Shown here piece after piece: positions 1 to 52,033 of a stretch of 64,000 nt of DNA. Every line of letters starts with the position of its first letter. Within the stretch, counting starts at the first letter, position 1. The notes beneath the pieces were generated by a model, which ran no database searches, was not told where the DNA came from, and was given only the letters and a program-made list of their open reading frames with translations. The stretch lies in IMG/VR virus record IMGVR_UViG_2974646641_000001, positions 9,788 to 73,787 of that record; one strand, given 5' to 3'. The DNA comes from a virus (Duplodnaviria; Caudoviricetes). Position numbers and translations under genes: made by a program.

Positions 1-52
1 ACCATTATGAATTATGGTAGAAACTTCTCAATCTAGTTAGTGGGGTGATAAG

Positions 53-472
53 ATGGCAAATAAGGTTGACCTATGGCGTTACAAAGAAAAGTTAGAACTT
101 GGCACAAACGACTCGTGGGTAGAGCTTGACAACGGAAACATTATCAACTCTGGAGCTGATATTAATGACGATACATTTGATGTTAAGTATACTTTTCATT
201 GCGCACAATATCGAGTATCAGATAGAAATATTACGAGTGTTGACGGAATGAATGATGAAGATACAATCGTGGTTGCCGTTAAACACAGACCAAACTTTGA
301 CTATGATAGTTACCGAGCTAGATTTAGAAAGAAGTATTATATCGTAACCTACATCGTACCAGATACCGCCGCAATCGTATCGTATGACTTATTATCACTA
401 AAATCAGTCATTAAGAACGGTGGTTCATCTGGTGCTTCCGATTCATTTGGGGGTGGCACATTTGGCGACTAA
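53..472 (+). CDS. putative head-tail joining (head closure) protein
   Basis: 139 aa; position upstream of tail-completion and major tail genes; GGGGTG RBS. Confidence 0.6.
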   Translation: MANKVDLWRYKEKLELGTNDSWVELDNGNIINSGADINDDTFDVKYTFHCAQYRVSDRNITSVDGMNDEDTIVVAVKHRPNFDYDSYRARFRKKYYIVTYIVPDTAAIVSYDLLSLKSVIKNGGSSGASDSFGGGTFGD

Positions 473-914
473 AAAGCAATTAGTCACTAGCGGATTAGGT
501 TCAATTGAGGTAACTGGTGAAGACGAATTATTAAGGCAGTTAGATAAGCTTAAATTAACCCGTAAAGAACGTTCAGCTATTGTTGAAGCCGCTATTCCGA
601 TTGCCGAAAAACACTTGTATGATTGCACGCCTTATGATGAATTTGAAGATATTCGTAACAAAAAACTATACGGAAAATCAATCGGGCACTTGCGTGACCA
701 TATCACACATAAACCGAACCAATTTATTGATGGCGGCACTGAATTAGGGTTTGAGCAAAAGGCTTATCCAATTGCTGTCTGGACTGATTGGGGAACATAT
801 CGTCAGCCTGCACAGTTCTGGTTTGAAAAGTCCGTTGAAACCATGCCATATGACCAAATCTTTGCCGCACAAACTCAAACGGCTAAGGCTATTTTAAAGG
901 CAAAGGGGTTGTAA
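462..914 (+). CDS. HK97 gp10-like tail component
   Basis: HLRDHI, GF..KAY.IAVWTDWGT.RQPAQFWFEKS motifs; probable TTG start at 462 after GGGGGTGG. Confidence 0.65.
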   Translation: MATKKQLVTSGLGSIEVTGEDELLRQLDKLKLTRKERSAIVEAAIPIAEKHLYDCTPYDEFEDIRNKKLYGKSIGHLRDHITHKPNQFIDGGTELGFEQKAYPIAVWTDWGTYRQPAQFWFEKSVETMPYDQIFAAQTQTAKAILKAKGL

Positions 915-917
915 GAT

Positions 918-1295
918 TTGATTTCAAATGACGTTAAACAATTAATCAGGGACGCCAACATTGATGGAATTGACTCTGACTACGTTTTTGCGTATGGTCT
1001 TCCTGACCGTGTTAAGGCGTCAGTTCAGAATAAAATAGTCATTTTAGTAAATGATATTTCACGGATTCCTAGCAAATTTGGTAGCGATGATATAATCGCT
1101 GATGATGGTACGGTACAGGTACAGTTCTTTTACCCACTAAGTATCAAGGGTGATGTCACAGCTTTATATGAGCACCCTGTTCGTAACATGCTACGACATA
1201 ATGGTTGGTATCAAACAATTGGTGGCGGTGTTGACCGTGAACCAAAGACTTCACAACTTTACTCAACCTATCACTTTAAGAAAACTATTTATTAA
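918..1295 (+). CDS. putative tail terminator/completion protein
   Basis: 125 aa; VQVQFFY strand; directly upstream of major tail gene. Confidence 0.6.
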   Translation: MISNDVKQLIRDANIDGIDSDYVFAYGLPDRVKASVQNKIVILVNDISRIPSKFGSDDIIADDGTVQVQFFYPLSIKGDVTALYEHPVRNMLRHNGWYQTIGGGVDREPKTSQLYSTYHFKKTIY

Positions 1296-1316
1296 AAAAG
1301 AAAGAGGTAATCAATA

Positions 1317-1934
1317 ATGGCAAAAACCAAAGGTATTGACAGCGCTCGGCTTGCTATTTTTCAAACAGACAAGGAACAAGTTAATACGACAAACACAGCA
1401 ATTGGTACGACTGGTGTATACACGTTAGACTCAACTACCGCACAAGGTATGACGGTCGGCAATATTACTGGTCTTACTCCAACGATGACTAAGATTTACG
1501 GTTCTGACATGGTTGTTGAAACGTCTGGTAAAGGTGTTGGGTCTGTTCAAGCAACTGTTGGTGCTAACGATATTCCAGAAGACATCATTGACGCTATTAC
1601 TGGTGTTGACAATGAAAAAGGTTTCTCTGTTGTTACATCAGATACTCGTGCGCCATATTCAGTTATTGAATTTATCACCCACGGCCGTTTGAACAACAAA
1701 TTACACTTCGCCTTATTGAAAGGTACTTTCGGTCTGGAAGAACACAACATGCAAACGAACACCGAATCAGAACAATTGGCACCAGACTCATTGACGTTTA
1801 CTGGTGTTAACCGTCAATCTGATAAGGCCGCTTATGCTAAAGGTGACGAAGCTAAGGACACTTTCAAGATTGAAGATTGGACTAACTTCGTATTTCCGGG
1901 TAATGCTGTTGCGAGTAGCGGCTCCCACGCCTAA
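1317..1934 (+). CDS. major tail protein (phi13-like)
   Basis: 205 aa; KIYGSD, FALLKGTF, DSLTF motifs; AGAGG RBS; synteny. Confidence 0.85.
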   Translation: MAKTKGIDSARLAIFQTDKEQVNTTNTAIGTTGVYTLDSTTAQGMTVGNITGLTPTMTKIYGSDMVVETSGKGVGSVQATVGANDIPEDIIDAITGVDNEKGFSVVTSDTRAPYSVIEFITHGRLNNKLHFALLKGTFGLEEHNMQTNTESEQLAPDSLTFTGVNRQSDKAAYAKGDEAKDTFKIEDWTNFVFPGNAVASSGSHA

Positions 1935-1992
1935 ATTAGCTAAGGTTACTCCTAGTGTGAGTAATGTAACAATTGAAACTGAATAATCACCT

Positions 1993-2020
1993 ACATACCC
2001 CGTCTGGGGTGTGTGTACAT
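1993..2020 (+). promoter_or_regulatory. intergenic hairpin flanked by two TACAT sites
   Basis: catacccc-gtct-ggggtgtg stem-loop; TACAT at 1992-1996 and 2016-2020. Confidence 0.6.
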
Positions 2021-2061
2021 ATCCAAAAATAAAATATTAGATGAAAGACGAGGAGATTCAC

Positions 2062-2460
2062 ATGACTGTCAAAATCAATGCAAAAGACTTAGGTATTCGC
2101 AAGCCCGTCGAAGTAAACGAAACCAACAAAAATATCAAAAAGACGTTAAAGGTGCAAATGAAGTTGGAAGCGTTAGGTAACATTGACGCCGAAAACATGA
2201 CTGATGAGGAAGCTTATAGTGTGTTCTTGAAGAACCAGTACGAAGCTAACGAAGCAACCACCGAATATATTGCTGACATGTTGCGTTTATCAGAATCACA
2301 AATTGATAAACTAGAAGACTTGGATTCAGACAAGACCGATGAGTTGTTCGCTCAAATCATTCAAAAGGTTATGCACATTGACCAGATTGTGGACGGTGAC
2401 GAAGACGACAGTACGCCCAGCGGAACCGCAGACGTTTCAGGAAACGCTGGACGAGATTAA
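2062..2460 (+). CDS. tail assembly chaperone (gpG-like)
   Basis: acidic helical protein between MTP and TMP; GAGGAG RBS before ATG 2062. Confidence 0.75.
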   Translation: MTVKINAKDLGIRKPVEVNETNKNIKKTLKVQMKLEALGNIDAENMTDEEAYSVFLKNQYEANEATTEYIADMLRLSESQIDKLEDLDSDKTDELFAQIIQKVMHIDQIVDGDEDDSTPSGTADVSGNAGRD

Positions 2461-2638
2461 TCGTCTTGAAAAAGCATTAGTTGCTCAAAAGCAAGACACG
2501 TTCAACAACCTAGAGGAAACCAATTATTTTGATTTACTAGAAATGCTATCTGTTGATGATAACAGCGATGGTTCTAGTTCTGACGATGAGGTAGTTCCTT
2601 TGGGGTACTGGTTAGAAGATAACATTGCCGAGGGGTAA
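2417..2638 (+). CDS. tail assembly chaperone extension (gpT-like), probably reached by frameshift
   Basis: open +1 frame overlapping the gpG 3' end; no RBS-linked start; ETNYFDLLEML segment. Confidence 0.6.
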   Translation, partial: PAEPQTFQETLDEINRLEKALVAQKQDTFNNLEETNYFDLLEMLSVDDNSDGSSSDDEVVPLGYWLEDNIAEG

Positions 2639-2668
2639 TGTTATTGTTTTTACTTATTTTTGTTGGTT

Positions 2669-2695
2669 AAGTTCGCTTTGGCGGGCTTGTTTTTT
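2669..2695 (+). terminator. intrinsic terminator-like hairpin before tape measure gene
   Basis: aagttcgc-tttg-gcgggctt then gtttttt. Confidence 0.5.
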
Positions 2696-2712
2696 GCAAG
2701 GAGGGTTTTTAA

Positions 2713-5700
2713 ATGAAACAGGCCGCATATGGTAGCTTAACATATAATGTTAATATTAACGATACCAAGGCTCAATCAAGCCTGCGTACGTTAAAAGGAG
2801 CTATCCGCTCCACAGGCCACGAATGGCGCTCTAACGCTTCTGCAATGCAAGCCGCTGGTGACAGTGCAAGTGCTCTGGAAGCCAAGATAACAGGACTTAA
2901 TAAAGAAATTGAGCTACAATCTGATTACAACAAGCGTTTAGCTGACGCCTTAAAACATGCCAATGCTCAAACTGACAAGGAAAAACTTGCGGTTATGCGC
3001 TGGACGAACGAATTAACCCGAAGTAATGCGGCGTTGAAACGGCGTCAAAGCGAATTGGCAAGTGCGCGTGCCGCTGAAATCAGATTCTCAACTGGTATCG
3101 ACAAGGCTAAAACCTCACATAAAGCTTATACCAGTGCGATTGAGGCAAACGAAAAGGCTTTACTAGCAGAGGGCAAAGAGGAACAAGCAAGCGCTAAACA
3201 TAAACAACTATTGGCGGCCAAGACATCTGCTTTAAAAGATGAACTCGGTCGTGAGGAAAAGGCATTCAAGGCGTTAAAATCTAGTGCTAGTTCATCTAAT
3301 GTTGATATTAACAAACAGTCTGCCGTTGTATCAAAAGCTCGCGAAGCTTATGCTAGGGCCCGTGAGGAACAGCGTAAGTATTCTACCGGCTTGCACAAGA
3401 TGGAACAGTATTCTAAGTCAACTGCGGAAATATCACAGTCGCTTGCTTCAAGATTGCGAGCGGAGGGTAAGGGCTACTCTGCAATGGCGGTAGAATTGAA
3501 GTCATTAATTAGTTCTCGCAAGGGCCTAATGGCTCAATACAAGGCCGAAGCGTCTGAGTTGGCGTTAGTCAAAAAACGTTCCGGCGAAACAAGTGCGGCT
3601 TATTCAACGCAAGCTAAGAAGGTCAACGAACTAGGTGCGAAAATTGGGGCAACAGAATCAAAAATCCGTTCTTTAAACAAGCGTGTTGGCCTATCTGGTA
3701 CAGCGATAAATTCATTTAGCGACAAAATTGGTGGTATGCAGAAAAAATATTCTGGTGTTGCCACTGCGATGTCTGCTGTTTCTCGTGGTACTGGTTATGC
3801 AACCTTAGGGCTTGCCGCTGTGACCAAGCAAGGCGTTTCGATGGCAACCTCTCTACAATCTTCTTTTGTGAAGACTAAAAACTTAATTGTTAAGTCTAAT
3901 ACAGAAGGTACTGGCGAGATTAATCGTAACCTTGCAAAGATGAAATCAAATGCTCAATCATATTCTAAGGAGTATGGATTGACACAACAAAAGATTGCCG
4001 ATGGCTATCAAGACTTAATCAAGCGTGGTTATAGTTCAGCACAAGCGTTAGGTTCAATGAAGACATTAGTTAAAGGTGCTATCGCCACTGGTGATGACTT
4101 TAATGATGTCACAGCCGTTTCTACACAGACTTTGGAATCATTCGGTCTAAGAGCTAAATCTACCGCTCAAATGGCTAAGAATACGTCTAAGGTTGTTAAC
4201 GAGATGGCCTACGCCGCCGATATGACGGCTACCGATTTCCAAAGCTTGGGTAAAGGTATGGAATATGTCGGTAACACGGCCCATCAAGCAGGGTTTAGTA
4301 TCTCCGAAACTGCTAGTGCCATGGGTATTTTATCGAACAACGGTTTGGAATCTGACAAAGCTGGTACTGGACTACGTAAGACGATTAACTCATTGGTATC
4401 TCCTACTGATAACGCTACTGGCGCTTTGAAGAAATTAGGGTTATCAACAAGTAGTTTTACAGATAAGAATGGTAAGATGAAGTCGATGTCGGAAATCTTC
4501 GGCATTTTGAATCGTCACATGAAGGGCTTATCTGGTCACGACCGTACTGATGTATTCCACGCAATCTTTGGCACAACTGGTCAGCAAGCCGGTGGTATCT
4601 TAACCGATAATTATAAATCACTTGGAAAACTTAATGACGAGGTTGCTAGGTCTGCGAAGAACGATTATATTGGTGGTTTATCTGCAAAGAACATGGAAAC
4701 TGCGCAGAATCAGTTTAACAAGTTTAAGGTTACTTTTCAAGCTTTAGAGATTGAGTTTGCAAACGTATTACTTCCATATTTAACCAAAGGCGCTAAGGCG
4801 CTGACTGGATTAATGGATAAGTTTGATAAGCTAAGTCCTTCCGCTAAAAAAGCCGCCGGAGCAACGCTTCTATTAGTTCCAGCAATTAGTGCTGTTACTG
4901 GTGTAATCGCCGCTTTCATTCGGAACTCAGGGACAATCGCGACTGTTATTTCTAAGTTGTTTAGCACGTCTAAGGTTAAAACTGCCAGTTCAAGTAAATC
5001 CGCCATAGCCGCAATTAACGAACAAACGGCCGCTGTTAAAGCTCTTTCTGCGGCATGGGGAGAAGCTGGACGAGCCGCCGGAGCAGAAGCAGAGGAAGCC
5101 GGTGCCGGAGTTGGCGGCGGTTCTAAAGGAAAAGCTGGAAAGACAGCTTCCGAAGTGGAGTCAGTTGGCACTCGCGAAGAATATAAGGCGGCTAAGAAGT
5201 CTGGTTCCAAGACATCTATTCTGAAACGTATGGCCAAGGGACAGACAACCACAGAAGACGCCGAAGCCATCTCATCAAGAGTTGGCAAAATTGGCACTAC
5301 TGGTTCTAAGCTAGGGAAAATAGCTAGAGGCACTGGTAGTGTTCTTAAACGTGTTCCATGGTTACAAACTGGGTTAGCCGCCATGAATCTTATCGGTATC
5401 AACAAGAAGAACGCCGGCCAGAAGGTTGGTTCCACTGCTGGTCAATTAGGTGGTACAATTGGTGGCGGTGCTATTGGTACTGGCCTTGGGGGCCTAATCG
5501 GTGGTGGACTCGGAACTTTCTTTGGCCCAGCAGGAACAGTCGCTGGTGCTAAGATTGGTTCTACTGTTGGTGGACTTGCTGGTAGCTTATTTGGTGGTTC
5601 TAAGGGCCAAGATTGGGGTGGACAATTAGGTAAGAAGATTCAGAAGTCTTTAAAGAACTTCAAAATGCCTAAGATGTCAACCGTCACTAAGTCAATCGGT

Positions 5701-8376
5701 GATTGGTTTGGTGGTATTGGTAAGTGGATTAGTAAGCTAAAGCTACCAAGTATTAATTTTGGTAAAATGTTTAAAGGATTTAAACTTCCTAACATTGGGA
5801 AGATGTTTAAAAACTTCAAACTGCCTAAAATTAGTGGAATTGGTAAGTGGTTTAGCGGATTGTTCAAAGGGCTTAAAATGCCTAGTTTAAGTAGTCTTGG
5901 CAAATCAATCGGTTCAGCATTTAGTAAGATGTTCTCTGGTCTTGGCAAAACAGGTATCGGAAAATCAATCTCTAAAATGCTGGCCGGTGTTGGTAAAACC
6001 ATGTCAGGCTGGGCTAAGGGGATTGGTAAGTTCTTTGCCCCGGCTGTTAAGGCAATTCAAACACCTTTTAAGAAAATTGGTAAGTGGTTTAAGACCAGCC
6101 CAGTTGGTAAGTCAATTGTAACTATTGGTAAAGATATTGCCGGCGTAGTCAAGGGTATTGGTAAGTTTATTGCCGCCCTAGGAGCAATTGCCGGAAAGTT
6201 AGCCGCAATCGGTTTAGTCAAGTTATTTAAAGGAATTGGCAAGGCTCTTGGAGGCATGGGCAAAATCTTCTCTAAGGTCGGCAAGACAATTGGAAGATGG
6301 GCTAAGGGTGTTCGTAAGACCATTGACAATATGGTTAAACCAATTCAAAAAACGATGGGTAAAATCGGTAAAGGCATTTCTAAGGCATGGAGTGGCGCTT
6401 TAAAGACTGTCACAAAATTTGTTAAGAATATGTACCACACCGCCACTAAATGGATTGGAAAATTAGTAAGTCCACTGGCTAAAACTTGGCATTCCATCTC
6501 TAAAACTGCTGAAAAATGGTGGAAGAACATATCAGGAACTGTTGGTCGCTGGGTTCATAATCTCTACAAAACTGCCACTAAATGGATTGGAAGGCTGTTA
6601 AGTCCCGTAGCTAAGGCTTGGAAGTCAATTTCCAAAACTGCTGGTAGATGGTGGAAATCTATCTCCAATGCGATTGGTAGTTGGGCTCACAAAATCTACA
6701 AAAATGTGACTAAGTGGTTCAGAAACTTGCTGTCACCAGTTGCCAGAGCATGGAAAAATGTATCTAAAACCATCGGCGGCTGGATTAAGGGTATTTGGAA
6801 AAATATCTCTAAATTCGGTAACAATATGGCAAGCTTCTTTAAAAAGCTTCCGGGGCGGATTTCCGGCGCACTAAAAGGTGCATGGCATGGTATCTGGAAC
6901 GCAATGGCCGGAATTGTTAACAACGGTGTTATTCACCCTGTTGTTAAAGGTTGGAATGCCGTTGCCGGAGCCATTAACGGTGTCGAAAAGAAAATTGGTG
7001 TTGGCAAGAGCTTTAGACTTAGCACAGCTAGTTACGGTTCGGCTAAGCTAAGCACCTATGCCAATGGTACTCCGGGAGGGCCAGCGTTAGTAAATGACGC
7101 TAAGTCTAAATACTGGCGCGAAGCTTACAAGCTTCCAGATGGCCGCATGGGTATGTTCCCTAATAAGCGTAACATTATAGTTAACCTTCCAAAAGGAACT
7201 GAAATTGCCAAAGGTGAGGACGCTAGAATGGTTCAGCCTTACCTAGAACACACTGGTGGTAAAATCCCGGCCTTTGCTTCTGCTACTGGCTGGTTAGATG
7301 GTATCGGCAGTGCTATCGGCGGTGCTGTGCACGGTGTCGGTAATTGGTTCTCTGGAGTTGAAACTAAGGCTTCTAAGCTTATTGATAATTTAGGCAAGAT
7401 GATTAAGTCACCTGCTAAATATCTATCTGCTATGATTGCTTCACCATTAAACGCTTTAGCAAAAGGCGGTGGCATAGCCGCTAAAGCCGTTGGCATGACT
7501 GGTGACATTGTTGTCAACTCTCTTACTAGCTGGTTCAAAAAGATGTTAAAAGCAGGCCAAGATGAACAACTTGTCGGCAACGTCAAGCTTGGTGGTAGCG
7601 TTGCTTCACGTGCTCGTGCGTTAGCTAAAGCATTCAAGCAAGGTTATCCTGCTTCTAACAACGGTGGTATTGCCGGTATCTTAGGTAACTGGATTCAAGA
7701 ATCTAACTTGAACCCTTCCGCTGTCAACTCTAGTGACCATGGTACTGGTTTGGGGCAATGGACGTTCACTCGTGAAACTGGATTAAGAAATTGGTTACGT
7801 AAGCACGGTTACGCATGGAACTCCGCCGCTGGTCAAATTGGCTATGCCTTGAATGAACCCGGCGCAAACGGAATGCTAAAGGCTGTATTGAGAATGACAA
7901 ATCCTACTGCCGCGGCTCAAAAGTTCTTCGCAACTTGGGAGTCTGGCGGTAACATGGACGCTTCTGGTGGTGCTCGTTTGAGTAACGCTTCTGCTGTATA
8001 CCGCTACATTAAGGGTATGGAGAACGGTGGTCTTGTTGATAAAGCTCAAATGATTAACATTGCGGAACACAACAAACCAGAAATGGTTGTGTCTTTGACC
8101 AACAAAGACGCCGCAATTCGTCAATTGAAGCAATCAATTAGCTACCTTGAGAGTGGTAACACCGCCACTAACGTGAATACTCAAAATACGTCGTCTGCTG
8201 ATAGTCAAGCAATTGAACAAATTGCAACTGCTATCCAGCAAACTAACGCATTATTGCAAGCTATTCTGTCATCAAGCAATACCCCGAACGTCGCAGTTCT
8301 TGCTTCTCAAAGCGTTGTGGATTCAGTTAACAATGCTCGTCTTGCAAAAGATAGATACAACAAAATGTTGAATTAG
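2713..8376 (+). CDS. tape measure protein with C-terminal tail-lysozyme domain
   Basis: 1887 aa; TP901-type TMP core (AYAADMTATD, MGILSNNGLESDKAGT); Trp-periodic repeats; C-terminal ILGNWIQES...GLGQWT. Confidence 0.95.
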   Translation: MKQAAYGSLTYNVNINDTKAQSSLRTLKGAIRSTGHEWRSNASAMQAAGDSASALEAKITGLNKEIELQSDYNKRLADALKHANAQTDKEKLAVMRWTNELTRSNAALKRRQSELASARAAEIRFSTGIDKAKTSHKAYTSAIEANEKALLAEGKEEQASAKHKQLLAAKTSALKDELGREEKAFKALKSSASSSNVDINKQSAVVSKAREAYARAREEQRKYSTGLHKMEQYSKSTAEISQSLASRLRAEGKGYSAMAVELKSLISSRKGLMAQYKAEASELALVKKRSGETSAAYSTQAKKVNELGAKIGATESKIRSLNKRVGLSGTAINSFSDKIGGMQKKYSGVATAMSAVSRGTGYATLGLAAVTKQGVSMATSLQSSFVKTKNLIVKSNTEGTGEINRNLAKMKSNAQSYSKEYGLTQQKIADGYQDLIKRGYSSAQALGSMKTLVKGAIATGDDFNDVTAVSTQTLESFGLRAKSTAQMAKNTSKVVNEMAYAADMTATDFQSLGKGMEYVGNTAHQAGFSISETASAMGILSNNGLESDKAGTGLRKTINSLVSPTDNATGALKKLGLSTSSFTDKNGKMKSMSEIFGILNRHMKGLSGHDRTDVFHAIFGTTGQQAGGILTDNYKSLGKLNDEVARSAKNDYIGGLSAKNMETAQNQFNKFKVTFQALEIEFANVLLPYLTKGAKALTGLMDKFDKLSPSAKKAAGATLLLVPAISAVTGVIAAFIRNSGTIATVISKLFSTSKVKTASSSKSAIAAINEQTAAVKALSAAWGEAGRAAGAEAEEAGAGVGGGSKGKAGKTASEVESVGTREEYKAAKKSGSKTSILKRMAKGQTTTEDAEAISSRVGKIGTTGSKLGKIARGTGSVLKRVPWLQTGLAAMNLIGINKKNAGQKVGSTAGQLGGTIGGGAIGTGLGGLIGGGLGTFFGPAGTVAGAKIGSTVGGLAGSLFGGSKGQDWGGQLGKKIQKSLKNFKMPKMSTVTKSIGDWFGGIGKWISKLKLPSINFGKMFKGFKLPNIGKMFKNFKLPKISGIGKWFSGLFKGLKMPSLSSLGKSIGSAFSKMFSGLGKTGIGKSISKMLAGVGKTMSGWAKGIGKFFAPAVKAIQTPFKKIGKWFKTSPVGKSIVTIGKDIAGVVKGIGKFIAALGAIAGKLAAIGLVKLFKGIGKALGGMGKIFSKVGKTIGRWAKGVRKTIDNMVKPIQKTMGKIGKGISKAWSGALKTVTKFVKNMYHTATKWIGKLVSPLAKTWHSISKTAEKWWKNISGTVGRWVHNLYKTATKWIGRLLSPVAKAWKSISKTAGRWWKSISNAIGSWAHKIYKNVTKWFRNLLSPVARAWKNVSKTIGGWIKGIWKNISKFGNNMASFFKKLPGRISGALKGAWHGIWNAMAGIVNNGVIHPVVKGWNAVAGAINGVEKKIGVGKSFRLSTASYGSAKLSTYANGTPGGPALVNDAKSKYWREAYKLPDGRMGMFPNKRNIIVNLPKGTEIAKGEDARMVQPYLEHTGGKIPAFASATGWLDGIGSAIGGAVHGVGNWFSGVETKASKLIDNLGKMIKSPAKYLSAMIASPLNALAKGGGIAAKAVGMTGDIVVNSLTSWFKKMLKAGQDEQLVGNVKLGGSVASRARALAKAFKQGYPASNNGGIAGILGNWIQESNLNPSAVNSSDHGTGLGQWTFTRETGLRNWLRKHGYAWNSAAGQIGYALNEPGANGMLKAVLRMTNPTAAAQKFFATWESGGNMDASGGARLSNASAVYRYIKGMENGGLVDKAQMINIAEHNKPEMVVSLTNKDAAIRQLKQSISYLESGNTATNVNTQNTSSADSQAIEQIATAIQQTNALLQAILSSSNTPNVAVLASQSVVDSVNNARLAKDRYNKMLN
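6439..6834 (+). repeat. three 132-bp (44 aa) tandem repeats inside TMP
   Basis: TATKWIG...SP.AK.W..ISKT unit starting at 6439, 6571, 6703. Confidence 0.8.
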
Positions 8377-8380
8377 CACC

Positions 8381-8415
8381 ATATTTGGGGGCCACACCCC
8401 CAAATATACATACAT
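8381..8415 (+). promoter_or_regulatory. intergenic hairpin + TACATACAT
   Basis: perfect 11-bp stem atatttggggg/cccccaaatat, loop ccaca; TACAT at 8407 and 8411. Confidence 0.7.
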
Positions 8416-8437
8416 CATTAACATAGGAGGTAATATA

Positions 8438-10222: not shown

Positions 10223-10227
10223 ACGGA

Positions 10228-10256
10228 ACGATAGAGAACTCCTCTATCGTACATAC
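10228..10256 (+). promoter_or_regulatory. intergenic hairpin + TACATAC
   Basis: perfect 9-bp stem acgatagag/ctctatcgt, loop aactc; TACAT at 10250. Confidence 0.7.
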
Positions 10257-10275
10257 ACAAGAGGAGGTATTGTTA

Positions 10276-12654: not shown

Positions 12655-12665
12655 GAGGTTATAGA

Positions 12666-15600: not shown

Positions 15601-16085
15601 ACGCTGTTGATGGAAATGCCCAAATGTACCTTTTAAATGATGGTTCGCCAGCGGTTGCGTCACCGACAGTTTATAACCGAACGTATTCTAACGGTGCAAA
15701 TGTGTTTGTCACCTCATATGGTCGTATCGGTAGGTCAACCTCGGCAAGTAAGTACAAACTAGCTATCGCCAGAAGCGATGATACATTGCAAGCTGACCGT
15801 TTAATGACTCTAAAACCAGCAAGCTGGAATGACAAAGTAGCTACGGAAAAAATGGCTGAATCATTGTCAAATGGTGAAATACCAGTAGAAGCAGAAATAA
15901 ATCTAAGACGACATTACGGCTTAATTGCCGAGGATTTACGAGACGCTGGACTAGATGAGTTCTTAATCACTGGTAAAGATGGTCAAATTGAAGGTATTGA
16001 ATACGACCGTTTATGGACGGTACTAATTCCTAAAATTAAACAGCTAAATAATAGAATTAACGAACTTGAAAGGAAGACCCTATAA
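12666..16085 (+). CDS. tail fibre/host-specificity protein with CBM-like domains and C-terminal S74 chaperone
   Basis: coiled-coil N-terminus; NLIPYSSNF..W and NLVYNAS CBM-like starts; SASKYK...HYGLIAEDL...IEYDRL. Confidence 0.85.
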   Translation: MARSAFVEVNITNPTKLAQDSQDTANNAVKGVTDLNDPNLMSVIEKQNNVVQFAGLTSQYNVLVQNAKDEGIDTTAVTTAYNNLNKFMADVLADPDHASDVDRVTYKKYQDAYNEELAKLQNALQNNANNKFDSAASATSQAASTASQAASQAQSAVDYTNGQIASQASAVSEASKNASEASSKANSALDAASGANAEITKLKGGSTLTIAELEDGLGTKVSNDTFTTYQTQTASQFAETVKEADFTTYQTQTSKLIESKVDNGTYQTDKTQTAKDIASKVSSSDFETYQTQTDGMIASKVSKKDANNVNLIPYSSNFSDSLEGWQLMAWGATDRKLLVTTHSFYKNGTGKLLYLNTAQNATSAAGSLRFSVLPNTKYTFQFKAFASSNVVGANVYFLSRAYGSTSDYDTAHGLFNNLVTSPSHIDQYTVTFTTGANDNEGYIRVDNIGSNNGASSGLFFTELKMEPGDTATNYIYGGQDSMISQMSNDIILRVTKDGLIDQINIQAGNTLISSSGQLTLSGKSVFLDSVDPVIMKSANIDTLLVGKKLTAADIAANTFTTNNGTFTVDKNGLVTATSLIIRGSTNLVYNASLSGGNGSYIPGWNMNGEGYYSNAVLYDGVPALVWAGTTASGVWDNYATTYYQPVTQTGIPYSASGTFRDYGSASGMMFQCTLAFFTDKATASRINGYKAFNYTATGGDSGSIYFTIDNVVAPSNAKYVALQFWAYNGKGHAAWSQPMLTQTAKATGYQPDTGNIISAGTVIGTNISASIISGTTIHAGDIINSTNNTANFYPLTIDSNGFIQSYHIDDNFANSAKLYTGNLVISNRNMSANAGSNNFAGETAVLGGSSLTLSSGYTVGKDTDFTKTLISEGQPGTTKLTLSGITGITLKGDDQKIHFHGMYSDSQPKGITFTPYGNINGDEGRTTGNWYVGYNLANMTAQFGIDNLNKNTIEFYRPTFVDEIGAMGNRLDNGRLLLHAVDGNAQMYLLNDGSPAVASPTVYNRTYSNGANVFVTSYGRIGRSTSASKYKLAIARSDDTLQADRLMTLKPASWNDKVATEKMAESLSNGEIPVEAEINLRRHYGLIAEDLRDAGLDEFLITGKDGQIEGIEYDRLWTVLIPKIKQLNNRINELERKTL

Positions 16086-16327
16086 TGGAAAACATTAATA
16101 TTACAACTGTATCAGTTCAGCCGGATAGTGTTTTTAAAATCAACTTTTCGGCAACGTATGAATCATCGTCACATATCGAGGGCTTTGTTCTTATGAAAGC
16201 AGAAGATTATCGTTCTAAGACAGGTGACGAACAAGTAGCATTCATTAAGCAAACTATTGCAGATAATTTGGCTGGCAAGATTACACCAGTATCTCAATTA
16301 GCTACTAACGATTCTAATAAGATTTAA
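16085..16327 (+). CDS. hypothetical tail-associated protein
   Basis: 80 aa; TAATG coupling to the fibre gene. Confidence 0.6.
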   Translation: MENINITTVSVQPDSVFKINFSATYESSSHIEGFVLMKAEDYRSKTGDEQVAFIKQTIADNLAGKITPVSQLATNDSNKI

Positions 16328-16344
16328 TATGGAGGATTTAAATT

Positions 16345-16767
16345 ATGAAATTTGAATTACAAAACCAATTTGTTGCACCATCAATTGAATTTCTAAAGAG
16401 GTTGTCACTTGCTGGCTACCAATCAATTGCTCGGACACGCTTAATTAAAATGTTATCTGATAAAAATGATGAAATTGTTGGTCTTCAAAAAGACCTAATT
16501 AAAGAATACGCCGATAAAGACGATAAAGGTGAATTGATTGTCAAAGACGGTCAATACAGCTTTACACCTGAAAATGATGTAGCTTTCAGAAAAGCGTATT
16601 TTGAATTAATGATGGAAAATGGCGAAATTGAAAAGGCCACCTATTCACACCACAAAGAAGACTGTCAAGACTTCTTATTAAATGCAGACATTAATGTATC
16701 TGGCGATGAAGCAACGTGTTATGACGCGTTATGTATTGCATTAGATGTTGATTTCGATAAGCGATAG
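16345..16767 (+). CDS. DUF1617-like tail module protein
   Basis: L..L.L.G.QSIARTRLIK pattern; GGAGG RBS. Confidence 0.6.
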   Translation: MKFELQNQFVAPSIEFLKRLSLAGYQSIARTRLIKMLSDKNDEIVGLQKDLIKEYADKDDKGELIVKDGQYSFTPENDVAFRKAYFELMMENGEIEKATYSHHKEDCQDFLLNADINVSGDEATCYDALCIALDVDFDKR

Positions 16768-16783
16768 AAAGGAATGATTTAGT

Positions 16784-17896
16784 TTGGCAAAGACATTAGA
16801 ATATGCCGACACTTCTGCTCAAACCGTAAAAATTGGCGATACGACTACCAGTTTCACAATGGTATTGGGCGAAGATAGCAACCCCATTGACCTTACTAAC
16901 GCAACAAGCATTATTGCCAAGATAGGTAATAGCACCGGCTACCTAAAAGAGCAAACAGTCACTTCTGATAATATCCCAGACCCTTTGTCTGGTCAAGTAA
17001 TTATTAAATTTGATTCTGAATTTATGAATGGACTTCCAGCGGGTTCTTACTTGTTAGAAGTTTGGGTGACTTATGATAGCGGAGTTGCTATCTATCCTAG
17101 TGGTGCTTTAACAGGATTTACAATTAATAATAACATTGAAGCTAGTGGTGGTTCAACCATCACAACTATCACATTCGATGATTTCGTAGATAAGTTTAAT
17201 GAAATCGCGGCAAACGCACTACCGGGGACAACTGACACTACTAACTTTCAGAAACGAAAAATTACGAACGATGATGGTAGTTTTTATTTAAGCATTCCTA
17301 ATGCAACTGGCGTTGATGTGACGGATAAATTACTTTCTTTGCCAAGTGGTTTATACACCTGCTATATTCAGGTCGGTGCAAAGAATAACCCAAGCAATGA
17401 TTCGCTAAGAGGAATTGTTTGGGTTTCTGCTGGTTATGGGGGTGGCATTTTTGGCACAAACACTACTGGTGGGTATACATCGTATAGACTATTTATAGAA
17501 GGCTCATCTTTACAGTGGAAAAAATACCCCGCTCAAACGTCTGGTACTTTAGATGTTGAGCCGGCATTTTATATGACTGGTACAACAAGTAGTGAAAAAG
17601 CCTTGAACTATGTGCTAACTGGAAATGTATTGCACGTCAGTGGTATTGTTGTCCCAAGTTCTGAAATAGCGGCAGGAGGTACTGCTGTATTATTCAACTT
17701 ACCATCTTCAATTGGTACCATAAGCGAATACAGAACCGCTGTACAGCAAAGCTCTAGCTATAACTTGTATTGTTTGAATTGGAAGCCAAATGGCCCCGTT
17801 TCAGTGATTAAACATAATACTGCTGGAACCGCAACAGCTATCACAACATCAACAGAATTGCAGGTATGCGTTGATATTGTTATTAACCCTAGTTAG
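16784..17896 (+). CDS. BppU-like baseplate/receptor-binding protein
   Basis: N-terminal VKIGDTTTSF...IDLT...YLLEVWV...IYPS; beta-rich C-terminus. Confidence 0.7.
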   Translation: MAKTLEYADTSAQTVKIGDTTTSFTMVLGEDSNPIDLTNATSIIAKIGNSTGYLKEQTVTSDNIPDPLSGQVIIKFDSEFMNGLPAGSYLLEVWVTYDSGVAIYPSGALTGFTINNNIEASGGSTITTITFDDFVDKFNEIAANALPGTTDTTNFQKRKITNDDGSFYLSIPNATGVDVTDKLLSLPSGLYTCYIQVGAKNNPSNDSLRGIVWVSAGYGGGIFGTNTTGGYTSYRLFIEGSSLQWKKYPAQTSGTLDVEPAFYMTGTTSSEKALNYVLTGNVLHVSGIVVPSSEIAAGGTAVLFNLPSSIGTISEYRTAVQQSSSYNLYCLNWKPNGPVSVIKHNTAGTATAITTSTELQVCVDIVINPS

Positions 17897-17968
17897 CAAT
17901 AAAATTCAAATTTTACTCTGAAAAAATTATCAAGAAGTAAACATTAACACACAAAAGGAGACATAAAG

Positions 17969-19360
17969 ATGAATAAACGACTAAAACACGTACTATACGG
18001 TACTGCATTGGCATTATCGTTAGGATTATCTGCTTCTGCTATTAATACGCAGAATGCCAGTGCCGCTAACACCAGTGATGGTGCCGTTGTTAAAAAAGTT
18101 GTTGACATTTCAGAATGGCAAGGCAACGTTTCTTATCAGAAGGCTTTAGCTTTAAAATCTGAAACCTCATTTGTAATTGTCCGTGTTCAATACGGTTCTA
18201 ATTACAAGGATATTCAGTATAAGAACACGATTGCTAACCTCGAAAAAGCTGGGACGCCATACGGTGTTTATTCTTATTCGCGGTATGTAAATGCTTCTGA
18301 CGCTAAGCAAGAAGCCAAAGACCTTTATAATCGTGCTAAGAATGCTAAGTTCTTCGTTAATGACGCAGAAGAAGTTACTACGACTAGTGGTTCTTATTCT
18401 AGTGCTGTTAAGGCTTGGGGTTCTGAAATGCAAAGCTTAACCAACAAGCCAGTTATCCTATATTCTGGTAGCTATTTCTACAACAATTATATTGGAACTA
18501 TGAGCAACTATGACGCTTTTTGGGAAGCTAACTATAGTAACCATTATCTCAAAGACCCAGCATTATGGCAGTACACGGATTCTGGTTACTCAACTAGTCT
18601 TGGTTTAGGTGTTGATACCAACAAGGTTATCACATCTAAACACCCTGTAAAGTGGTGGATTGGTTCCAGTGCCGCTGACAAGCAAAACGTAGACAAGTAT
18701 CATGTTGGTGGATTCAAGGTTGGTGACAAAGTTAAGATTAACTCTAACGTTGCTAAATGGGACGATGGCGATACTAAGACCCCAATTGATAGTTCCGTAT
18801 TGAAGAAGACTTACACTGTTGGTCAAATCAAGCAAGTAACGGAAGGCAAATCTAACCAAATGCTCTTACTAAAGAGCGGTAACACCGTTGTTGGTTGGAC
18901 GTTAGCTGAACATGTTACGAAGCAAGGTTCTAGTTCGAATTCCAGCTCATCTAACAGCAACAAAGCTTCTAACCAAACCTATAACCAAAACGGGACATTC
19001 TACCCAAACACCACTCTTAATGTTCGTACTGGAGCTGGCACCAACTACTCCAAGGTAGCCACTTATTACAGTGGTGAAAGCGTTAAGTATAACCAAGTAA
19101 TCATTAAATCTGATTATGTCTGGGCTAGATATTTACGCTCTAACGGTTATTACGGGTATATTGCTCTAGGTGTAAATGGTGGTGAAAGCTACGGTAAGCG
19201 TATTGTCGGTGCTTCTCATACCTATTATACAGTTAAATCTGGTGATAGTCTATGGAAGATTGCCAACGACCACGGAACTACTATTAGCAATTTAACTAGC
19301 CTTAATGGTATCTCGATGTATAGCACTATCTATCCAAACCAACGACTAATTATTAGCTGA
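17969..19360 (+). CDS. signal-peptide endolysin: GH25 muramidase + SH3-like + LysM
   Basis: N-terminal signal ending ASA; VVDISEWQG, DAEE, LWQYT; TTLNVRTGAG SH3b; YTVKSGDSLWKIA LysM. Confidence 0.9.
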   Translation: MNKRLKHVLYGTALALSLGLSASAINTQNASAANTSDGAVVKKVVDISEWQGNVSYQKALALKSETSFVIVRVQYGSNYKDIQYKNTIANLEKAGTPYGVYSYSRYVNASDAKQEAKDLYNRAKNAKFFVNDAEEVTTTSGSYSSAVKAWGSEMQSLTNKPVILYSGSYFYNNYIGTMSNYDAFWEANYSNHYLKDPALWQYTDSGYSTSLGLGVDTNKVITSKHPVKWWIGSSAADKQNVDKYHVGGFKVGDKVKINSNVAKWDDGDTKTPIDSSVLKKTYTVGQIKQVTEGKSNQMLLLKSGNTVVGWTLAEHVTKQGSSSNSSSSNSNKASNQTYNQNGTFYPNTTLNVRTGAGTNYSKVATYYSGESVKYNQVIIKSDYVWARYLRSNGYYGYIALGVNGGESYGKRIVGASHTYYTVKSGDSLWKIANDHGTTISNLTSLNGISMYSTIYPNQRLIIS

Positions 19361-19377
19361 TAAGGGAGGTTCACCAC

Positions 19378-19707
19378 ATGGTATTAAGTAACATTATTGC
19401 CGCCGTTCCACCTCATTATTTCTTTGGATATAATCTTAGTGAATGGACGGAACTGATTGCCATTGTGAGTGCTTTTTTATCACTAGTTTCTTGGTTGTTC
19501 AAACGAGTTATTATTGACCCGTTGATGGAAAAGATTAGTGACTTAGGTGATAGTATTAAGCAATTGTCTGCTACGCAGAATGAAGATTCTAACACATTTA
19601 TGCAAACGCTAGAGAAGCACACCGAAGAACTTGGAGAAGTTAAGATTACGATGGCAAGGCACGACGAAGAATTAAGGTCTCTCTGGAAGGGGAAGAATAG
19701 AACATGA
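19378..19707 (+). CDS. holin-like/XhlA-like membrane protein
   Basis: one TM helix then coiled coil; directly after endolysin. Confidence 0.55.
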   Translation: MVLSNIIAAVPPHYFFGYNLSEWTELIAIVSAFLSLVSWLFKRVIIDPLMEKISDLGDSIKQLSATQNEDSNTFMQTLEKHTEELGEVKITMARHDEELRSLWKGKNRT

Positions 19708-20300
19708 ACAAAATTAAAACTGCATTTAACAACTTTATTTCTCAATTCGTAAAAACATTTGAAACTAACAAGACTAAGCCTAGCTACTGGTTACAAATTA
19801 TCGGTTCTGTTTTAATCATCGGATTAGCTGTTGGTTCAGCATTCTTTGGTCTAAAGATTGACCGTAGTGATGTCCTTATGGTATTTACGGTTATTGGTTC
19901 AGTGCTTGCGTTCGTAGGTACTGTAACGGATAATTCTATCCTTGAAAATGTTGGTAACGGTATTAAAAACGATTCTGATAGTTTAACGAGTAGTGAACAA
20001 GACGTTCTCAACAAACTTGTCGAAGCTCAAAAGGCGATTGAAAATGCAAAGACACCAACTGAGCAAGCACAATTAGCATTAAGTGCCGCTAATGAAGCTC
20101 AATCTGTTGCAGATAGCTTAGCAAATAAACTATCTAAAGAAGCCGTTTCAGACGCAGTCGTTAGTACGCAGGAAGTAGCACAGGTCGTAACCAGTGAATC
20201 AACAAGTGTCGCAGAGCCAGCTAGTGCTGTATCAGAAGTACCAGTAAGCGAAGCTACGTCAGAAGCTCCTACTAGCGAAACTCCTACTAGCGAAGCTTAG
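19704..20300 (+). CDS. holin with long acidic Ser/Thr/Glu tail
   Basis: two TM helices; ATGA overlap; lysis cassette position. Confidence 0.7.
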   Translation: MNKIKTAFNNFISQFVKTFETNKTKPSYWLQIIGSVLIIGLAVGSAFFGLKIDRSDVLMVFTVIGSVLAFVGTVTDNSILENVGNGIKNDSDSLTSSEQDVLNKLVEAQKAIENAKTPTEQAQLALSAANEAQSVADSLANKLSKEAVSDAVVSTQEVAQVVTSESTSVAEPASAVSEVPVSEATSEAPTSETPTSEA

Positions 20301-20306
20301 TATTAA

Positions 20307-20332
20307 TCCTCACAGTTATGTGAGGGTACATA
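20307..20332 (+). promoter_or_regulatory. intergenic hairpin + TACATA
   Basis: tcctcaca-gtta-tgtgaggg stem-loop; TACAT at 20327. Confidence 0.65.
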
Positions 20333-20361
20333 AAATACAAAAAAAGGAATGGTGAGATACA

Positions 20362-21333
20362 ATGGAACTATTTAATCAAGAAGTCTGGGACACAAAAGTC
20401 AAAGATGAAGATAAAGAAGCCTTAGAAGATTACTTATTAGAGCTTGAAGCCAACGGTCGGGCCGTTAAGACTCGTTATCAGTATAAGGCAGATATTCGTG
20501 GATTCTTATGCTATTCAAATAAGAAATATCCAAACAAAACTGTCACACAATTAAAGCGTAAAGATTTTCGTAATTTCTTCTTATTAATGCAACGTGATGG
20601 AACCAGCCATGCACGTATTAATCGTTTTCAAAGTAGTATTAGAAATTTTCTGGAATATCTGACAATCAGTGAAGACTACGATTACGAAGTAAACCAAATG
20701 CACGCCATTAAGGGTCTTATCAAAGAACCTGTTAAAACACACACTTATTTAACAGATGGCGAAGTTAACATGTTGCTAGATTATTTAATTCGCCATAAGA
20801 AATACGAAAAGGCTTTATTTGTTAGCCTTGCTTATGAATCATGCGGTCGGCGGAATGAAATTCTACAAGTTAAAAAGGATAAATTCGTGGAATCAAATCA
20901 AACAAACACCGTTATTGGTAAGCGTGCAAAACGCTTTAAATTAATCTATTTCAAGCGTACTCAACAAATCGCTGACCTTTATTTAAAGCAACGGGGCGAT
21001 GATGACATTGATAGTTTATGGATTTCAGACTACGGTGACGAACGCCACGCAATTAACTACTCCGTGTTCTATGAATGGTGCAACCAATTCGGTCGTATTT
21101 TAACAAAACTCACTGGTCATGAGGTTGCTGTTCACCCTCACGATTTCAGACGTACTGGTCTTGAAAACTACTCTACTGGTGTTCATCACGTATTAAAGGA
21201 AGCAGACAAGGACGCATTACCTTTGGAAGTGCTGAAACTGGTTGCTCATCATTCAAGTTCTGAAACTACGCAAGGTTATCTACAAGACCATGATGATGAC
21301 AAATTGAGTGACGCATTCGGAATTGAAATTTAA
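20362..21333 (+). CDS. tyrosine recombinase (Xer/integrase family)
   Basis: SAM-like N-domain; GRRNEI, GKRAK, HPHDFRRT, HSSSETTQGY catalytic boxes. Confidence 0.9.
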   Translation: MELFNQEVWDTKVKDEDKEALEDYLLELEANGRAVKTRYQYKADIRGFLCYSNKKYPNKTVTQLKRKDFRNFFLLMQRDGTSHARINRFQSSIRNFLEYLTISEDYDYEVNQMHAIKGLIKEPVKTHTYLTDGEVNMLLDYLIRHKKYEKALFVSLAYESCGRRNEILQVKKDKFVESNQTNTVIGKRAKRFKLIYFKRTQQIADLYLKQRGDDDIDSLWISDYGDERHAINYSVFYEWCNQFGRILTKLTGHEVAVHPHDFRRTGLENYSTGVHHVLKEADKDALPLEVLKLVAHHSSSETTQGYLQDHDDDKLSDAFGIEI

Positions 21334-21350
21334 TAAAGGGGTTTTAAACT

Positions 21351-21599
21351 ATGAATACAGTAGAAGTACAAGATGGCGAAGCAACTTTAACACGGGCAGT
21401 CCTATTCGATTGTCGAGCGAAAGGTATGTCAGCATTCCTCACGAAGCGTGACTTGGACGACTACCTTGAATTACTATACTATAAAGCCAACAAAGATGAC
21501 AATAAGATTAATAAGCGAAAATACAACGCAATGGTTAAAAAGATGGATATTACTGAATATGATTATTATGGCGTAAAAATCGGTTATCTAGTAAAATAA
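21351..21599 (+). CDS. hypothetical protein
   Basis: 82 aa ORF with AAAGGGG RBS. Confidence 0.6.
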   Translation: MNTVEVQDGEATLTRAVLFDCRAKGMSAFLTKRDLDDYLELLYYKANKDDNKINKRKYNAMVKKMDITEYDYYGVKIGYLVK

Positions 21600-21605
21600 T
21601 CAAAC

Positions 21606-31495: not shown

Positions 31496-31677
31496 GCTAA
31501 AAAATACATTTTTTTGATTTGCGTGTTTGGTCTTTTCAAATCTTTCAATCGTTTTATAGTTGTTCTTCTAAAGTTTCCTTCATATAAATATCCTTCTTTC
31601 TTTTTTCTATGTAAAAAGCATACCATTTCTGATATGCTTTGTCAAGTATTATTATTAGTGTTACTATTGATGATTAT

Positions 31678-51932: not shown

Positions 51933-52033
51933 TCGCTAAAAATAACGAATAAAATGGTAATTTTACCAAGAAAACAGTTGACAAAAGCGTGCCAGTTTGG
52001 TACGCTGTACATACAATAAAGGAGGAATGTGAT

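What the first reader, a model, noticed from the sequence alone, without database searches (positions are those of the whole stretch)
1..21600. TACAT appears depleted in late coding DNA but concentrated in spacers
A by-eye scan found about 11 sense-strand TACAT in ~21 kb of late CDS (172, 350, 1634, 8005, 8493, 8599, 11746, 13337, 13955, 15782, 17476; only one in the 5.6 kb TMP). Base composition alone predicts roughly 35. Six more lie in ~300 nt of the four spacers. The mazF CDS has none on its sense strand and dnaE has about 3. Inference: selection against UACAU in phage mRNA, which would let the phage degrade host mRNA while sparing its own.
Basis: partly seen in the sequence, partly recalled or inferred. 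Interest (0 to 1): 0.72.

Follow-up and report, generated by a model that had tools for sequence, protein, structure and literature searches.

The report
MazF cut-site avoided in phage genes
This Lactiplantibacillus plantarum phage has removed the RNA word UACAUA (the cut site of MazF-type RNases) from the sense strand of all its genes and keeps it just after hairpins between late genes, but phages without mazF avoid the word in their genes too, so the phage's own mazF is not what drives the avoidance.

Summary
All listed TACAT positions are correct. Late coding DNA has 11 sense-strand TACAT against 21-24 expected after codon-aware shuffles, while the antisense strand sits at expectation (18 against 16-18). 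Four spacers totalling 275 nt hold 6 (0.45 expected).

The real unit is the hexamer TACATA, which matches the strict U^ACAUA site published for B. subtilis, Listeria and S. aureus MazF. The 73.8-kb genome has 0 true sense-strand copies in coding sequence against 10-13 expected.

Five L. plantarum phages without mazF are equally or more depleted (5 against 60). So are mazF-less phages of B. subtilis, S. aureus, Listeria and E. faecalis (44 against 199). Lactococcus phages are not (41 against 52). Avoidance therefore tracks a MazF-type activity in the host cell, not the phage's gene.

Host genes keep UACAU at phage-like density and carry few UACAUA, so global host shutoff is unlikely.

What does go with the mazF-bearing Tybeckvirinae is the enrichment in spacers. 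A hairpin-UACAUA cassette occurs at 48 of 48 homologous late-gene junctions across 8 phages, probably as programmed mRNA cleavage points. No cleavage has been shown.

This scan has noted the same pattern before, on this genome and on other phage genomes.

The parts
53..21599 (+). Late (tail, lysis, recombinase-like) coding block. Sense TACAT 11 against 21-24 expected. Sense TACATA 0 against 4.0 expected. Antisense at expectation.
   Evidence: gene labels from Pfam: tail tube 1317-1934, chaperone 2041-2460, Dit 8438-10222, Tal 10270-12654, endolysin 17969-19360
1992..2021 (+). Cassette at the tail-tube/chaperone junction. The hairpin spans 1992-2015; its 5' arm itself starts with TACATA (predicted paired). 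An unpaired TACATA follows at 2016-2021, 19 nt before the start codon.
   Evidence: the 2016 copy is kept in all 8 phages, the 1992 copy reads TACATG in Maenad and Satyr
8382..8415 (+). Cassette at the tape-measure/Dit junction: hairpin 8382-8406, TACATA 8407-8412, overlapping TACAT 8411-8415.
   Evidence: upstream 30-nt dG -14.7; kept in 8 of 8 phages with different stems
10229..10267 (+). Cassette at the Dit/Tal junction: hairpin of about 10229-10249, then TACATA 10250-10255. An alternative pairing of CTCCTCT (10240-10246) with the Shine-Dalgarno AGAGGAG (10261-10267) would put TACATA in a loop.
20307..20332 (+). Cassette before the tyrosine-recombinase-like gene: hairpin 20307-20326, TACATA 20327-20332.
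   Evidence: 8 of 8 phages; stems differ between genera
31071..31433 (-). mazF: 120 aa, PemK/MazF family, about 40% identical to S. aureus and B. subtilis MazF. It has its own TTGACA-N17-TATAAT promoter, no mazE upstream, and no sense TACAT.
31608..31613 (-). Promoter-proximal TACATA: TTGACA-N17-TATGCT-ttt-TACATA, about 175 nt upstream of mazF. In 8014-B2 and Lenus the same arrangement sits 21-22 nt before the mazF start.
52008..52013 (+). Promoter-proximal TACATA in a 5' leader: TTGACA-N17-TACGCT-g-TACATA-caataAAGGAGG-N8-ATG(52035). It was counted as coding only because the longest ORF starts at a GTG inside the promoter.

Best explanation
There are two layers.

(1) Avoidance in genes. The sense strand of this phage's genes has been purged of UACAUA, and to a lesser degree of UACAUC/U. 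Infected Bacillota cells contain a MazF-type endoribonuclease that cuts U^ACAUA in single-stranded RNA. This pressure falls on phages of MazF-bearing hosts in general. It does not depend on the phage's own mazF.

(2) Retained copies. The copies that remain are placed deliberately.
- In the late operon, a GC-rich hairpin is followed within 0-3 nt by UACAUA, 7-38 nt ahead of the next start codon.
- A few further copies sit 1-3 nt after the -10 box of sigma-A-type promoters, at transcript 5' ends.

Cutting at the cassettes would split the long late transcript into pieces that end in a protective 3' hairpin. The cutter is probably the phage's early-expressed MazF, which has no antitoxin upstream; the host MazF could do the same job.

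Shown: the motif statistics, strand specificity, conservation and the cross-phage comparison.

Inferred: that the selective agent is MazF, that the phage MazF reads UACAUA, and that any cleavage occurs.
For: Specificity of the signal.
- In L. plantarum phages lacking mazF, TACATA ranks 1 of 4089 sense-strand hexamers (5 against 53.1). All three frames are depleted (1/14.2, 3/14.6, 1/24.2). Antisense is 79 against 79.1. One-letter neighbours are about 1.
- The result is the same under a shuffle that keeps the protein, codon usage and junction dinucleotides.

Host tracking.
- SPO1 10/39.0, K 11/55.4, A511 6/48.4 and phiEF24C 17/45.3 rank 3rd to 26th of about 3,200-3,900 hexamers.
- Lactococcus phages 949 (27/36.0) and P087 (14/14.7) are not depleted. 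The L. lactis control genome has no PF02452 (control lines).
- U^ACAUA is the strict site of B. subtilis and Listeria MazF and the preferred site of S. aureus MazF (bioRxiv 10.64898/2026.08.06.743204).
- L. plantarum WCFS1 has an endogenous MazEF (bioRxiv 10.1101/2022.08.04.502766).

Retained sites.
- Sense TACATA in co-directional spacers is enriched in all 8 Tybeckvirinae (this genome 10/3.1; 8014-B2 17/6.2; Lenus 13/3.7). Antisense is not enriched.
- Pooled over three genera it is 40/12.6, rank 9 of 4096, behind only Shine-Dalgarno and -35 words. In mazF-less L. plantarum phages it is 14/12.4.
- 74% of 91 sites have a stable hairpin in the 32 nt upstream, against 7% of background spacer positions (P 8e-30).
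- 48 of 48 junction instances keep hairpin plus TACATA. The 22 nt 5' of the motif are only 44% identical between genera.
- The cassettes are not flagged as intrinsic terminators and match no Rfam family.

Phage MazF: the equivalents of R25, P26, N36 and T48 are conserved.
Against: - No RNA ends are available, so cleavage is not shown.
- The phage MazF is only about 40% identical to the characterised enzymes. Its beta1-beta2 loop, which holds G18 and E20 of MazF-Bs, differs and carries a 3-residue insertion. Its specificity is therefore unproven.
- I could not read the host MazF sequence.
- Predicted accessibility of the motif is no higher than the spacer background (0.54 against 0.50).
- Hairpin-associated spacer copies also occur in mazF-less temperate phages phig1e (3) and Sha1 (3 of 5) and in phiEF24C (7 of 11). 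The phage enzyme is thus not required for such sites to exist.
- Other mazF-carrying phages give mixed results: NatCom_43249 shows no signal and TR-TP1 a weak one.
- Streptococcus phages, whose hosts are said to lack canonical MazF, are somewhat depleted on small numbers (5/13.5).
Confidence: 0.62

Rival explanations
1. The phage's own MazF is the selective agent. The phage shed UACAU from its messages so that its MazF can destroy host mRNA (host shutoff) while its own mRNA survives.
For: - mazF is intact, sits under a consensus promoter and is conserved in all 8 relatives.
- Its own CDS has no sense TACAT.
- The phage has zero coding UACAUA.
- Host-resident genes still hold some (7 in 126 kb).
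Against: - mazF-less phages of the same host are at least as depleted (5/59.7). So are mazF-less phages of four other MazF-bearing hosts.
- UACAU density is the same in phage and host CDS (0.60 against 0.65 per kb).
- UACAUA is rare in host genes (about 0.06 per kb) and itself about two-fold depleted there (O/E 0.53). Few host messages would be hit.
- The model does not explain why copies are enriched after hairpins between the phage's own genes.
Confidence: 0.1
2. The hairpin-TACATA cassette is a signal of another kind. It could be a site for a different RNase (RNase Y, RNase III or a phage factor), a pause, antitermination or terminator element, or a late-promoter word. Genes would then avoid TACATA to prevent spurious copies of that signal, and the match to the MazF site would be coincidental.
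For: - The hairpin is as conserved a feature as the hexamer.
- Several copies in mazF-less phages follow terminator-like hairpins with U-runs (Sha1 19004, LP65 25186).
- Motif accessibility is not unusual.
- The specificity of the phage MazF is untested.
Against: - The avoided word is exactly the published MazF hexamer. It is avoided in unrelated phages of B. subtilis, S. aureus and Listeria that lack any such cassette enrichment.
- The cassettes lack a U-run and were not called as terminators.
- TACATA abuts the Shine-Dalgarno sequence at some junctions (for example the cgggggTACATAggaggtg junction just upstream of the window). That leaves no room for a -10 box with a downstream start.
- Other copies lie just downstream of canonical -10 boxes.
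Confidence: 0.15
3. Artefact of codon usage, codon pairs or TA-dinucleotide bias. No selection acts on the word itself.
For: - Base composition overstates the expectation (30.7 against 21-24).
- The ATA codon and TA dinucleotides are rare.
- As a pentamer the signal ranks only 47th of 1024.
Against: - Depletion persists when the protein, codon usage and junction dinucleotides are all kept.
- All three frames are depleted and the neighbours of TACATA are about 1.
- Antisense is about 1.
- Under the same null, Lactococcus phages show O/E 0.79 for TACATA. The L. plantarum chromosome sample shows O/E 0.94 for TACAT.
Confidence: 0.03

Closest known systems
EndoA/NdoA (MazF-Bs) of B. subtilis and the MazF of S. 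aureus and L. monocytogenes: U^ACAUA-specific type II toxin RNases
   Same: Same Pfam family. Catalytic Arg and Thr and the Pro26 and Asn36 equivalents are conserved. The word avoided in genes and enriched in spacers is exactly their hexamer. UACAUC, a weak S. aureus off-target, is also depleted (54/110).
   Different: Only about 40% identity, a divergent beta1-beta2 loop with an insertion, no MazE gene upstream, encoded by a virulent phage, and cleavage specificity untested.
Processing of phage T7 early and late mRNAs by host RNase III at intergenic hairpins (established knowledge)
   Same: Intercistronic structured sites in a long phage transcript. Cutting them leaves 3' hairpins that stabilise the pieces.
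   Different: Here the proposed cut is in a single-stranded hexamer next to the hairpin, not in the stem. The enzyme would be a toxin-family RNase that may be phage-encoded.
T4 RegB endoribonuclease cutting GGAG in early mRNAs (established knowledge)
   Same: A phage-encoded sequence-specific RNase acting on the phage's own messages at short motifs near ribosome-binding sites.
   Different: RegB inactivates early messages by cutting in the Shine-Dalgarno sequence. Here the motif lies upstream of intact Shine-Dalgarno sequences in late-gene spacers.
MazF interplay of SPbeta and phi3T (bioRxiv 10.1101/2023.04.27.537455; PMC10769878)
   Same: Host MazF of a Bacillota acts on phage RNA, and the density of sites in phage transcripts matters.
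   Different: The sign is opposite. Those temperate phages are reported as enriched in UACAU sites and carry MazF inhibitors (AimX, YosL). The phages here avoid the site.
Restriction-site avoidance in phage DNA
   Same: Loss of a short word under attack by a sequence-specific nuclease. It is present in the same genome (GATC 1 against 260, GGATG 0 against 114).
   Different: Restriction avoidance affects both strands. The UACAUA avoidance affects only the transcribed sense strand, so it acts at the RNA level.

Membership tests
PemK/MazF toxin family (PF02452) | Significant match to the family profile over its full length | tested here: met
   E 2.2e-23, 78.7 bits, profile positions 1-107 of 109; PHROG 1936 MazF-like E 1e-38; PDB MazF chains E about 5e-19
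PemK/MazF toxin family (PF02452) | Catalytic and RNA-binding residues of MazF-Bs (Arg25, Thr48, Pro26; Asn36 affects specificity) | tested here: met
   R33, P34 and N44 are invariant and T56 nearly invariant in 17 relatives. They align with R25, P26, N36 and T48. Residue roles are taken from PMC8634880.
U^ACAUA-specific MazF subgroup (EndoA type) | beta1-beta2 loop residues that contact the second adenine (Gly18, Glu20 of MazF-Bs) | tested here: not met
   In the HMMER alignment the loop reads GERQSSRDAVQ against SPVVGS---EQ, with a 3-residue insertion and no aligned Gly or Glu.
U^ACAUA-specific MazF subgroup (EndoA type) | Cleavage of UACAUA RNA | not testable with these tools
   There is only indirect support: the hexamer is enriched after hairpins in the phages that carry this MazF clade.
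Type II toxin-antitoxin module (mazEF) | Antitoxin gene immediately upstream in one operon | tested here: not met
   Upstream of mazF lie a promoter and a 9-codon mini-ORF only. Two downstream, translationally coupled ORFs have no Pfam family and fall in PHROGs of unknown function.
Intrinsic (Rho-independent) terminator | GC-rich hairpin followed by a U-run | tested here: not met
   The cassettes are followed by TACATA, not by a T-run. None of the 22 terminator-like hits in 1-20000 coincides with them.
Any curated RNA family (Rfam 15) | Match at the gathering score | tested here: not met
   0 matches in the 64-kb window.

The most novel reading that the evidence does not exclude
The Tybeckvirinae (Maenadvirus, Douglaswolinvirus, Lenusvirus) have domesticated a MazF toxin as a dedicated mRNA-processing enzyme. 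Hairpin-UACAUA cassettes would act as punctuation, cutting the late polycistron into hairpin-capped stable messages. More widely, sense-strand UACAUA avoidance would be a general, so far undescribed footprint of MazF-type RNA attack on phages of Bacillota.
Probability: 0.42. Interest if true: 0.8.

Novelty: new variant of a known kind. Interest (0 to 1): 0.62.

Why it matters
MazF toxins are usually discussed as growth arresters or abortive-infection devices. Whether they shape phage genomes is an open question. Three points follow from this analysis.

- The MazF hexamer is the most avoided sense-strand word in several unrelated phages of MazF-bearing hosts. That is an RNA-level counterpart of restriction-site avoidance, and it is readable from sequence alone.
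- One phage subfamily that carries its own MazF has kept the word only at hairpin-marked gene junctions. This makes a concrete, testable case for a toxin turned into a message-processing enzyme.
- The one related statement I found in the searchable literature goes the other way: SPbeta and phi3T are reported as enriched in sites. I found no paper describing avoidance or the cassettes.

This scan has already flagged the same pattern on this genome and on several other phage genomes. This report therefore adds controls rather than a first sighting.

Tried and rejected
Host genome access.
- Two scans of genome contigs found nothing: a phage HNH protein that I mistook for the kinase and the L. plantarum recA primer planF.
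- No genome handle could be obtained for any L. plantarum assembly.
- A chromosomal segment has no copy in the plasmid collection, and an IS element did not lead to plasmids.
- I walked the chromosome with the look-up of encoding contigs to about 60 kb.
- The host sample is therefore small: 51 kb of chromosomal CDS plus two plasmids. I could not read the host MazF sequence.

Whether the ORF coupled to mazF is an antitoxin is untested.

Sequencing runs. All runs holding the phage are kept as contigs, and contigs cannot show RNA ends. In the one run on record as RNA, a contig stops at 1990 and the next starts at 2036. Those breaks bracket the TACATA copies at 1992 and 2016, while DNA-like runs bridge the gap. 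This is one study at low depth, so I do not count it as evidence.

Accessibility. Predicted unpaired probability of the motif (0.54) does not differ from the spacer background (0.50).

Other mazF-carrying phages. Results are mixed. NatCom_43249 shows no depletion. TR-TP1 is weak. ATCCB and PMBT24 are depleted in genes but their spacers are only weakly enriched. Carrying a MazF-family gene does not by itself predict the cassettes.

Protein atlas. The look-up only confirmed the family.

Caveat on gene calls. All CDS are my own longest-ORF calls. Starts are sometimes too far upstream, which inflates the observed coding copies, as at 52008.


Full report
**What the window is.** The window is bases 9788-73787 of a 73.8-kb virus record. 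It is 86-91% identical over its late region to the virulent Lactiplantibacillus plantarum siphophages Maenad, Satyr, Gut-P1 and ATCC 8014-B2, subfamily Tybeckvirinae.
- Bases 53-21599 on the + strand encode tail tube, chaperone, tape measure, Dit, Tal, an endolysin and a tyrosine-recombinase-like protein.
- mazF is at 31071-31433 on the minus strand (PF02452, E 2e-23). It is about 40% identical to S. aureus and B. subtilis MazF.
- mazF has its own TTGACA-N17-TATAAT promoter and no mazE upstream.

**Observation.** Late CDS holds 11 sense TACAT.
- Base composition predicts 30.7.
- Synonymous shuffling within genes predicts 21.3 and codon permutation 24.3.
- A shuffle that also preserves codon-junction dinucleotides predicts 22.4.
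- The antisense strand shows 18 against 16-19.
- The four spacers (275 nt) hold 6 against 0.45 expected (P 8e-6).

As a pentamer the depletion is real and strand-specific but unremarkable in rank (47th of 1024). The top ranks go to restriction sites: GATC 1 against 260 expected, GGATG 0 against 114.

**The real unit is a hexamer.** A 2026 preprint reports that MazF of B. subtilis and L. monocytogenes cuts strictly U^ACAUA, and that S. aureus MazF prefers it. Five of the six spacer copies are TACATA. None of the 11 coding copies is.
- In the whole window, sense-strand TACATA in called CDS occurs once (52008) against 11 antisense copies.
- That one copy lies after TTGACA-N17-TACGCT and before AAGGAGG-N8-ATG, so it is in a 5' leader.
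- True coding sequence of the 73.8-kb genome therefore has 0 against 10.3-14.1 expected, depending on the null.

**Is the phage's mazF the cause?** All close relatives carry mazF. I therefore took five L. plantarum phages that lack the family: phiJL-1, phig1e, Sha1, ATCC 8014-B1 and LP65.
- Sense TACATA is 0/5.7, 0/5.5, 3/7.7, 0/3.9 and 2/30.3 respectively.
- Pooled, it is 5 against 53.1, the most depleted of 4089 hexamers. It is depleted in all three frames. Antisense is 79 against 79.1 and one-letter neighbours are near 1.
- The eight Tybeckvirinae give 37 against 113.4.
- Four large mazF-less phages of hosts with a characterised or reported UACAU(A) MazF are also depleted: SPO1 10/39.0, K 11/55.4, A511 6/48.4, phiEF24C 17/45.3.
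- Lactococcus phages 949 (27/36.0) and P087 (14/14.7) are not depleted. Two Streptococcus phages are ambiguous on small counts.

Avoidance follows the host cell, not the phage gene.

**Host genes.** I could obtain only about 60 kb of L. plantarum chromosome and two plasmids.
- Chromosomal CDS: TACAT 33 against 35.0, TACATA 2 against 3.1.
- With the plasmids added: TACATA 7 against 13.3 (O/E 0.53, P 0.03) and TACAT 85 against 96.3.
- Host-resident genes therefore look mildly depleted for the hexamer, far less than phages, and not depleted for the pentamer.
- UACAU density is the same in phage and host CDS (0.60 and 0.65 per kb). UACAUA is rare in host genes.
- A self-sparing global shutoff of host mRNA is therefore unlikely.
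- L. plantarum WCFS1 is reported to have an endogenous MazEF. I could not read its sequence.

**The spacer copies.**
- Sense-oriented TACATA is enriched 2.7- to 4-fold in co-directional spacers of all eight Tybeckvirinae: 10/3.1 here, 17/6.2 in 8014-B2, 13/3.7 in Lenus. Antisense is not enriched.
- Pooled over three genera it is 40 against 12.6, rank 9 of 4096, behind only Shine-Dalgarno and -35 words. In mazF-less L. plantarum phages it is 14 against 12.4.
- SPO1, K and A511 show no enrichment.
- 74% of 91 sites follow a stable hairpin, against 7% of background positions.
- At six late junctions, 48 of 48 instances in eight phages have a hairpin (dG -7 to -16) followed by TACATA, 7-38 nt before the start codon. 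The 22 nt before the motif are only 44% identical between genera, so stems have turned over while the hexamer stayed.
- The cassettes lack a U-run, are not called as terminators and match no Rfam family.
- A second class of copies lies 1-3 nt after the -10 box of consensus promoters. This includes the promoter directly before mazF in 8014-B2 and Lenus, and 31608 and 52008 here.
- Just upstream of the window, copies flank a tRNA-Pro/tRNA-Gly cluster.

**Reading.** The most economical account has two parts.
- A MazF-type UACAUA cutter is active in infected cells of many Bacillota and has purged the word from phage genes.
- The Tybeckvirinae, which carry their own early-expressed MazF with no antitoxin gene upstream, keep the word as a cleavage point behind protective hairpins.

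The steps from statistics to enzyme and to cleavage are inference. Several caveats apply.
- The phage MazF keeps R25, P26, N36 and T48 equivalents but has a different beta1-beta2 loop.
- Hairpin-linked copies also exist in mazF-less phig1e, Sha1 and phiEF24C.
- Other mazF-carrying phages give mixed results.
- No run with raw RNA reads was available.

**Literature and earlier notes.** The searchable library holds the hexamer specificity and the opposite case, enrichment of sites in SPbeta and phi3T. I found no description of avoidance or of the cassettes. Earlier notes of this scan describe the same pattern on this genome and on other phage genomes. I re-tested what I took from them.

Noticed in passing
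whole window (and the 73.8-kb genome): Extreme avoidance of restriction-type words on both strands: GATC 1 against 260 expected, GGATG 0 against 114, GATGC 1 against 105, GCWGC 1 against 65, TCTAGA 0 against 24, ATGCAT 0 against 24. This is much stronger than the TACAT signal.
   Followed up: partly
window 25519-26163, 26885-27511, 29321-30142, 33984-34499, 40158-40820 (all minus strand): Five HNH/NUMOD homing-endonuclease-like genes are scattered through the replication module.
   Followed up: no
window 20362-21333 (+): A tyrosine-recombinase (phage integrase family) gene sits at the end of the late operon of a phage whose relatives are described as virulent. It is preceded by one of the conserved hairpin-TACATA cassettes.
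   Followed up: no
window 30219-31098 (minus): Two ORFs of unknown function (PHROGs 14545 and 5083) are translationally coupled to mazF by ATGA-type overlaps. They are syntenic in Maenad, 8014-B2 and Lenus. Either could be an unconventional antitoxin or a partner.
   Followed up: partly
genome 2171-3177, i.e. 6.6-7.6 kb before the window start: tRNA-Pro (2233-2306) and tRNA-Gly (3031-3103) are flanked by sense TACATA copies. One copy ends 2 nt before the 5' end of tRNA-Pro.
   Followed up: partly
window 31434-31700 (minus): Two consensus promoters lie in tandem upstream of mazF, with a 9-codon mini-ORF between them. The upstream promoter carries the TACATA. Relatives have a small gene or a single promoter there.
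   Followed up: no
window 40865-41885: About 1 kb has no ORF of 60 aa or more, between the divergent early modules.
   Followed up: no
Lactobacillus phage ATCCB (loci L154-L158): Antisense TATGTA is enriched in co-directional spacers (19 against 6.4 expected), the opposite orientation to the other Tybeckvirinae. This is unexplained and may reflect mis-called gene strands.
   Followed up: no
L. plantarum chromosome sample (loci L068, L079-L081): In host CDS the antisense words ATGTA (18 against 28) and TATGTA (2 against 6.5) are depleted, while sense TACAT is not. This is the reverse of the phage pattern. The sample is small.
   Followed up: no
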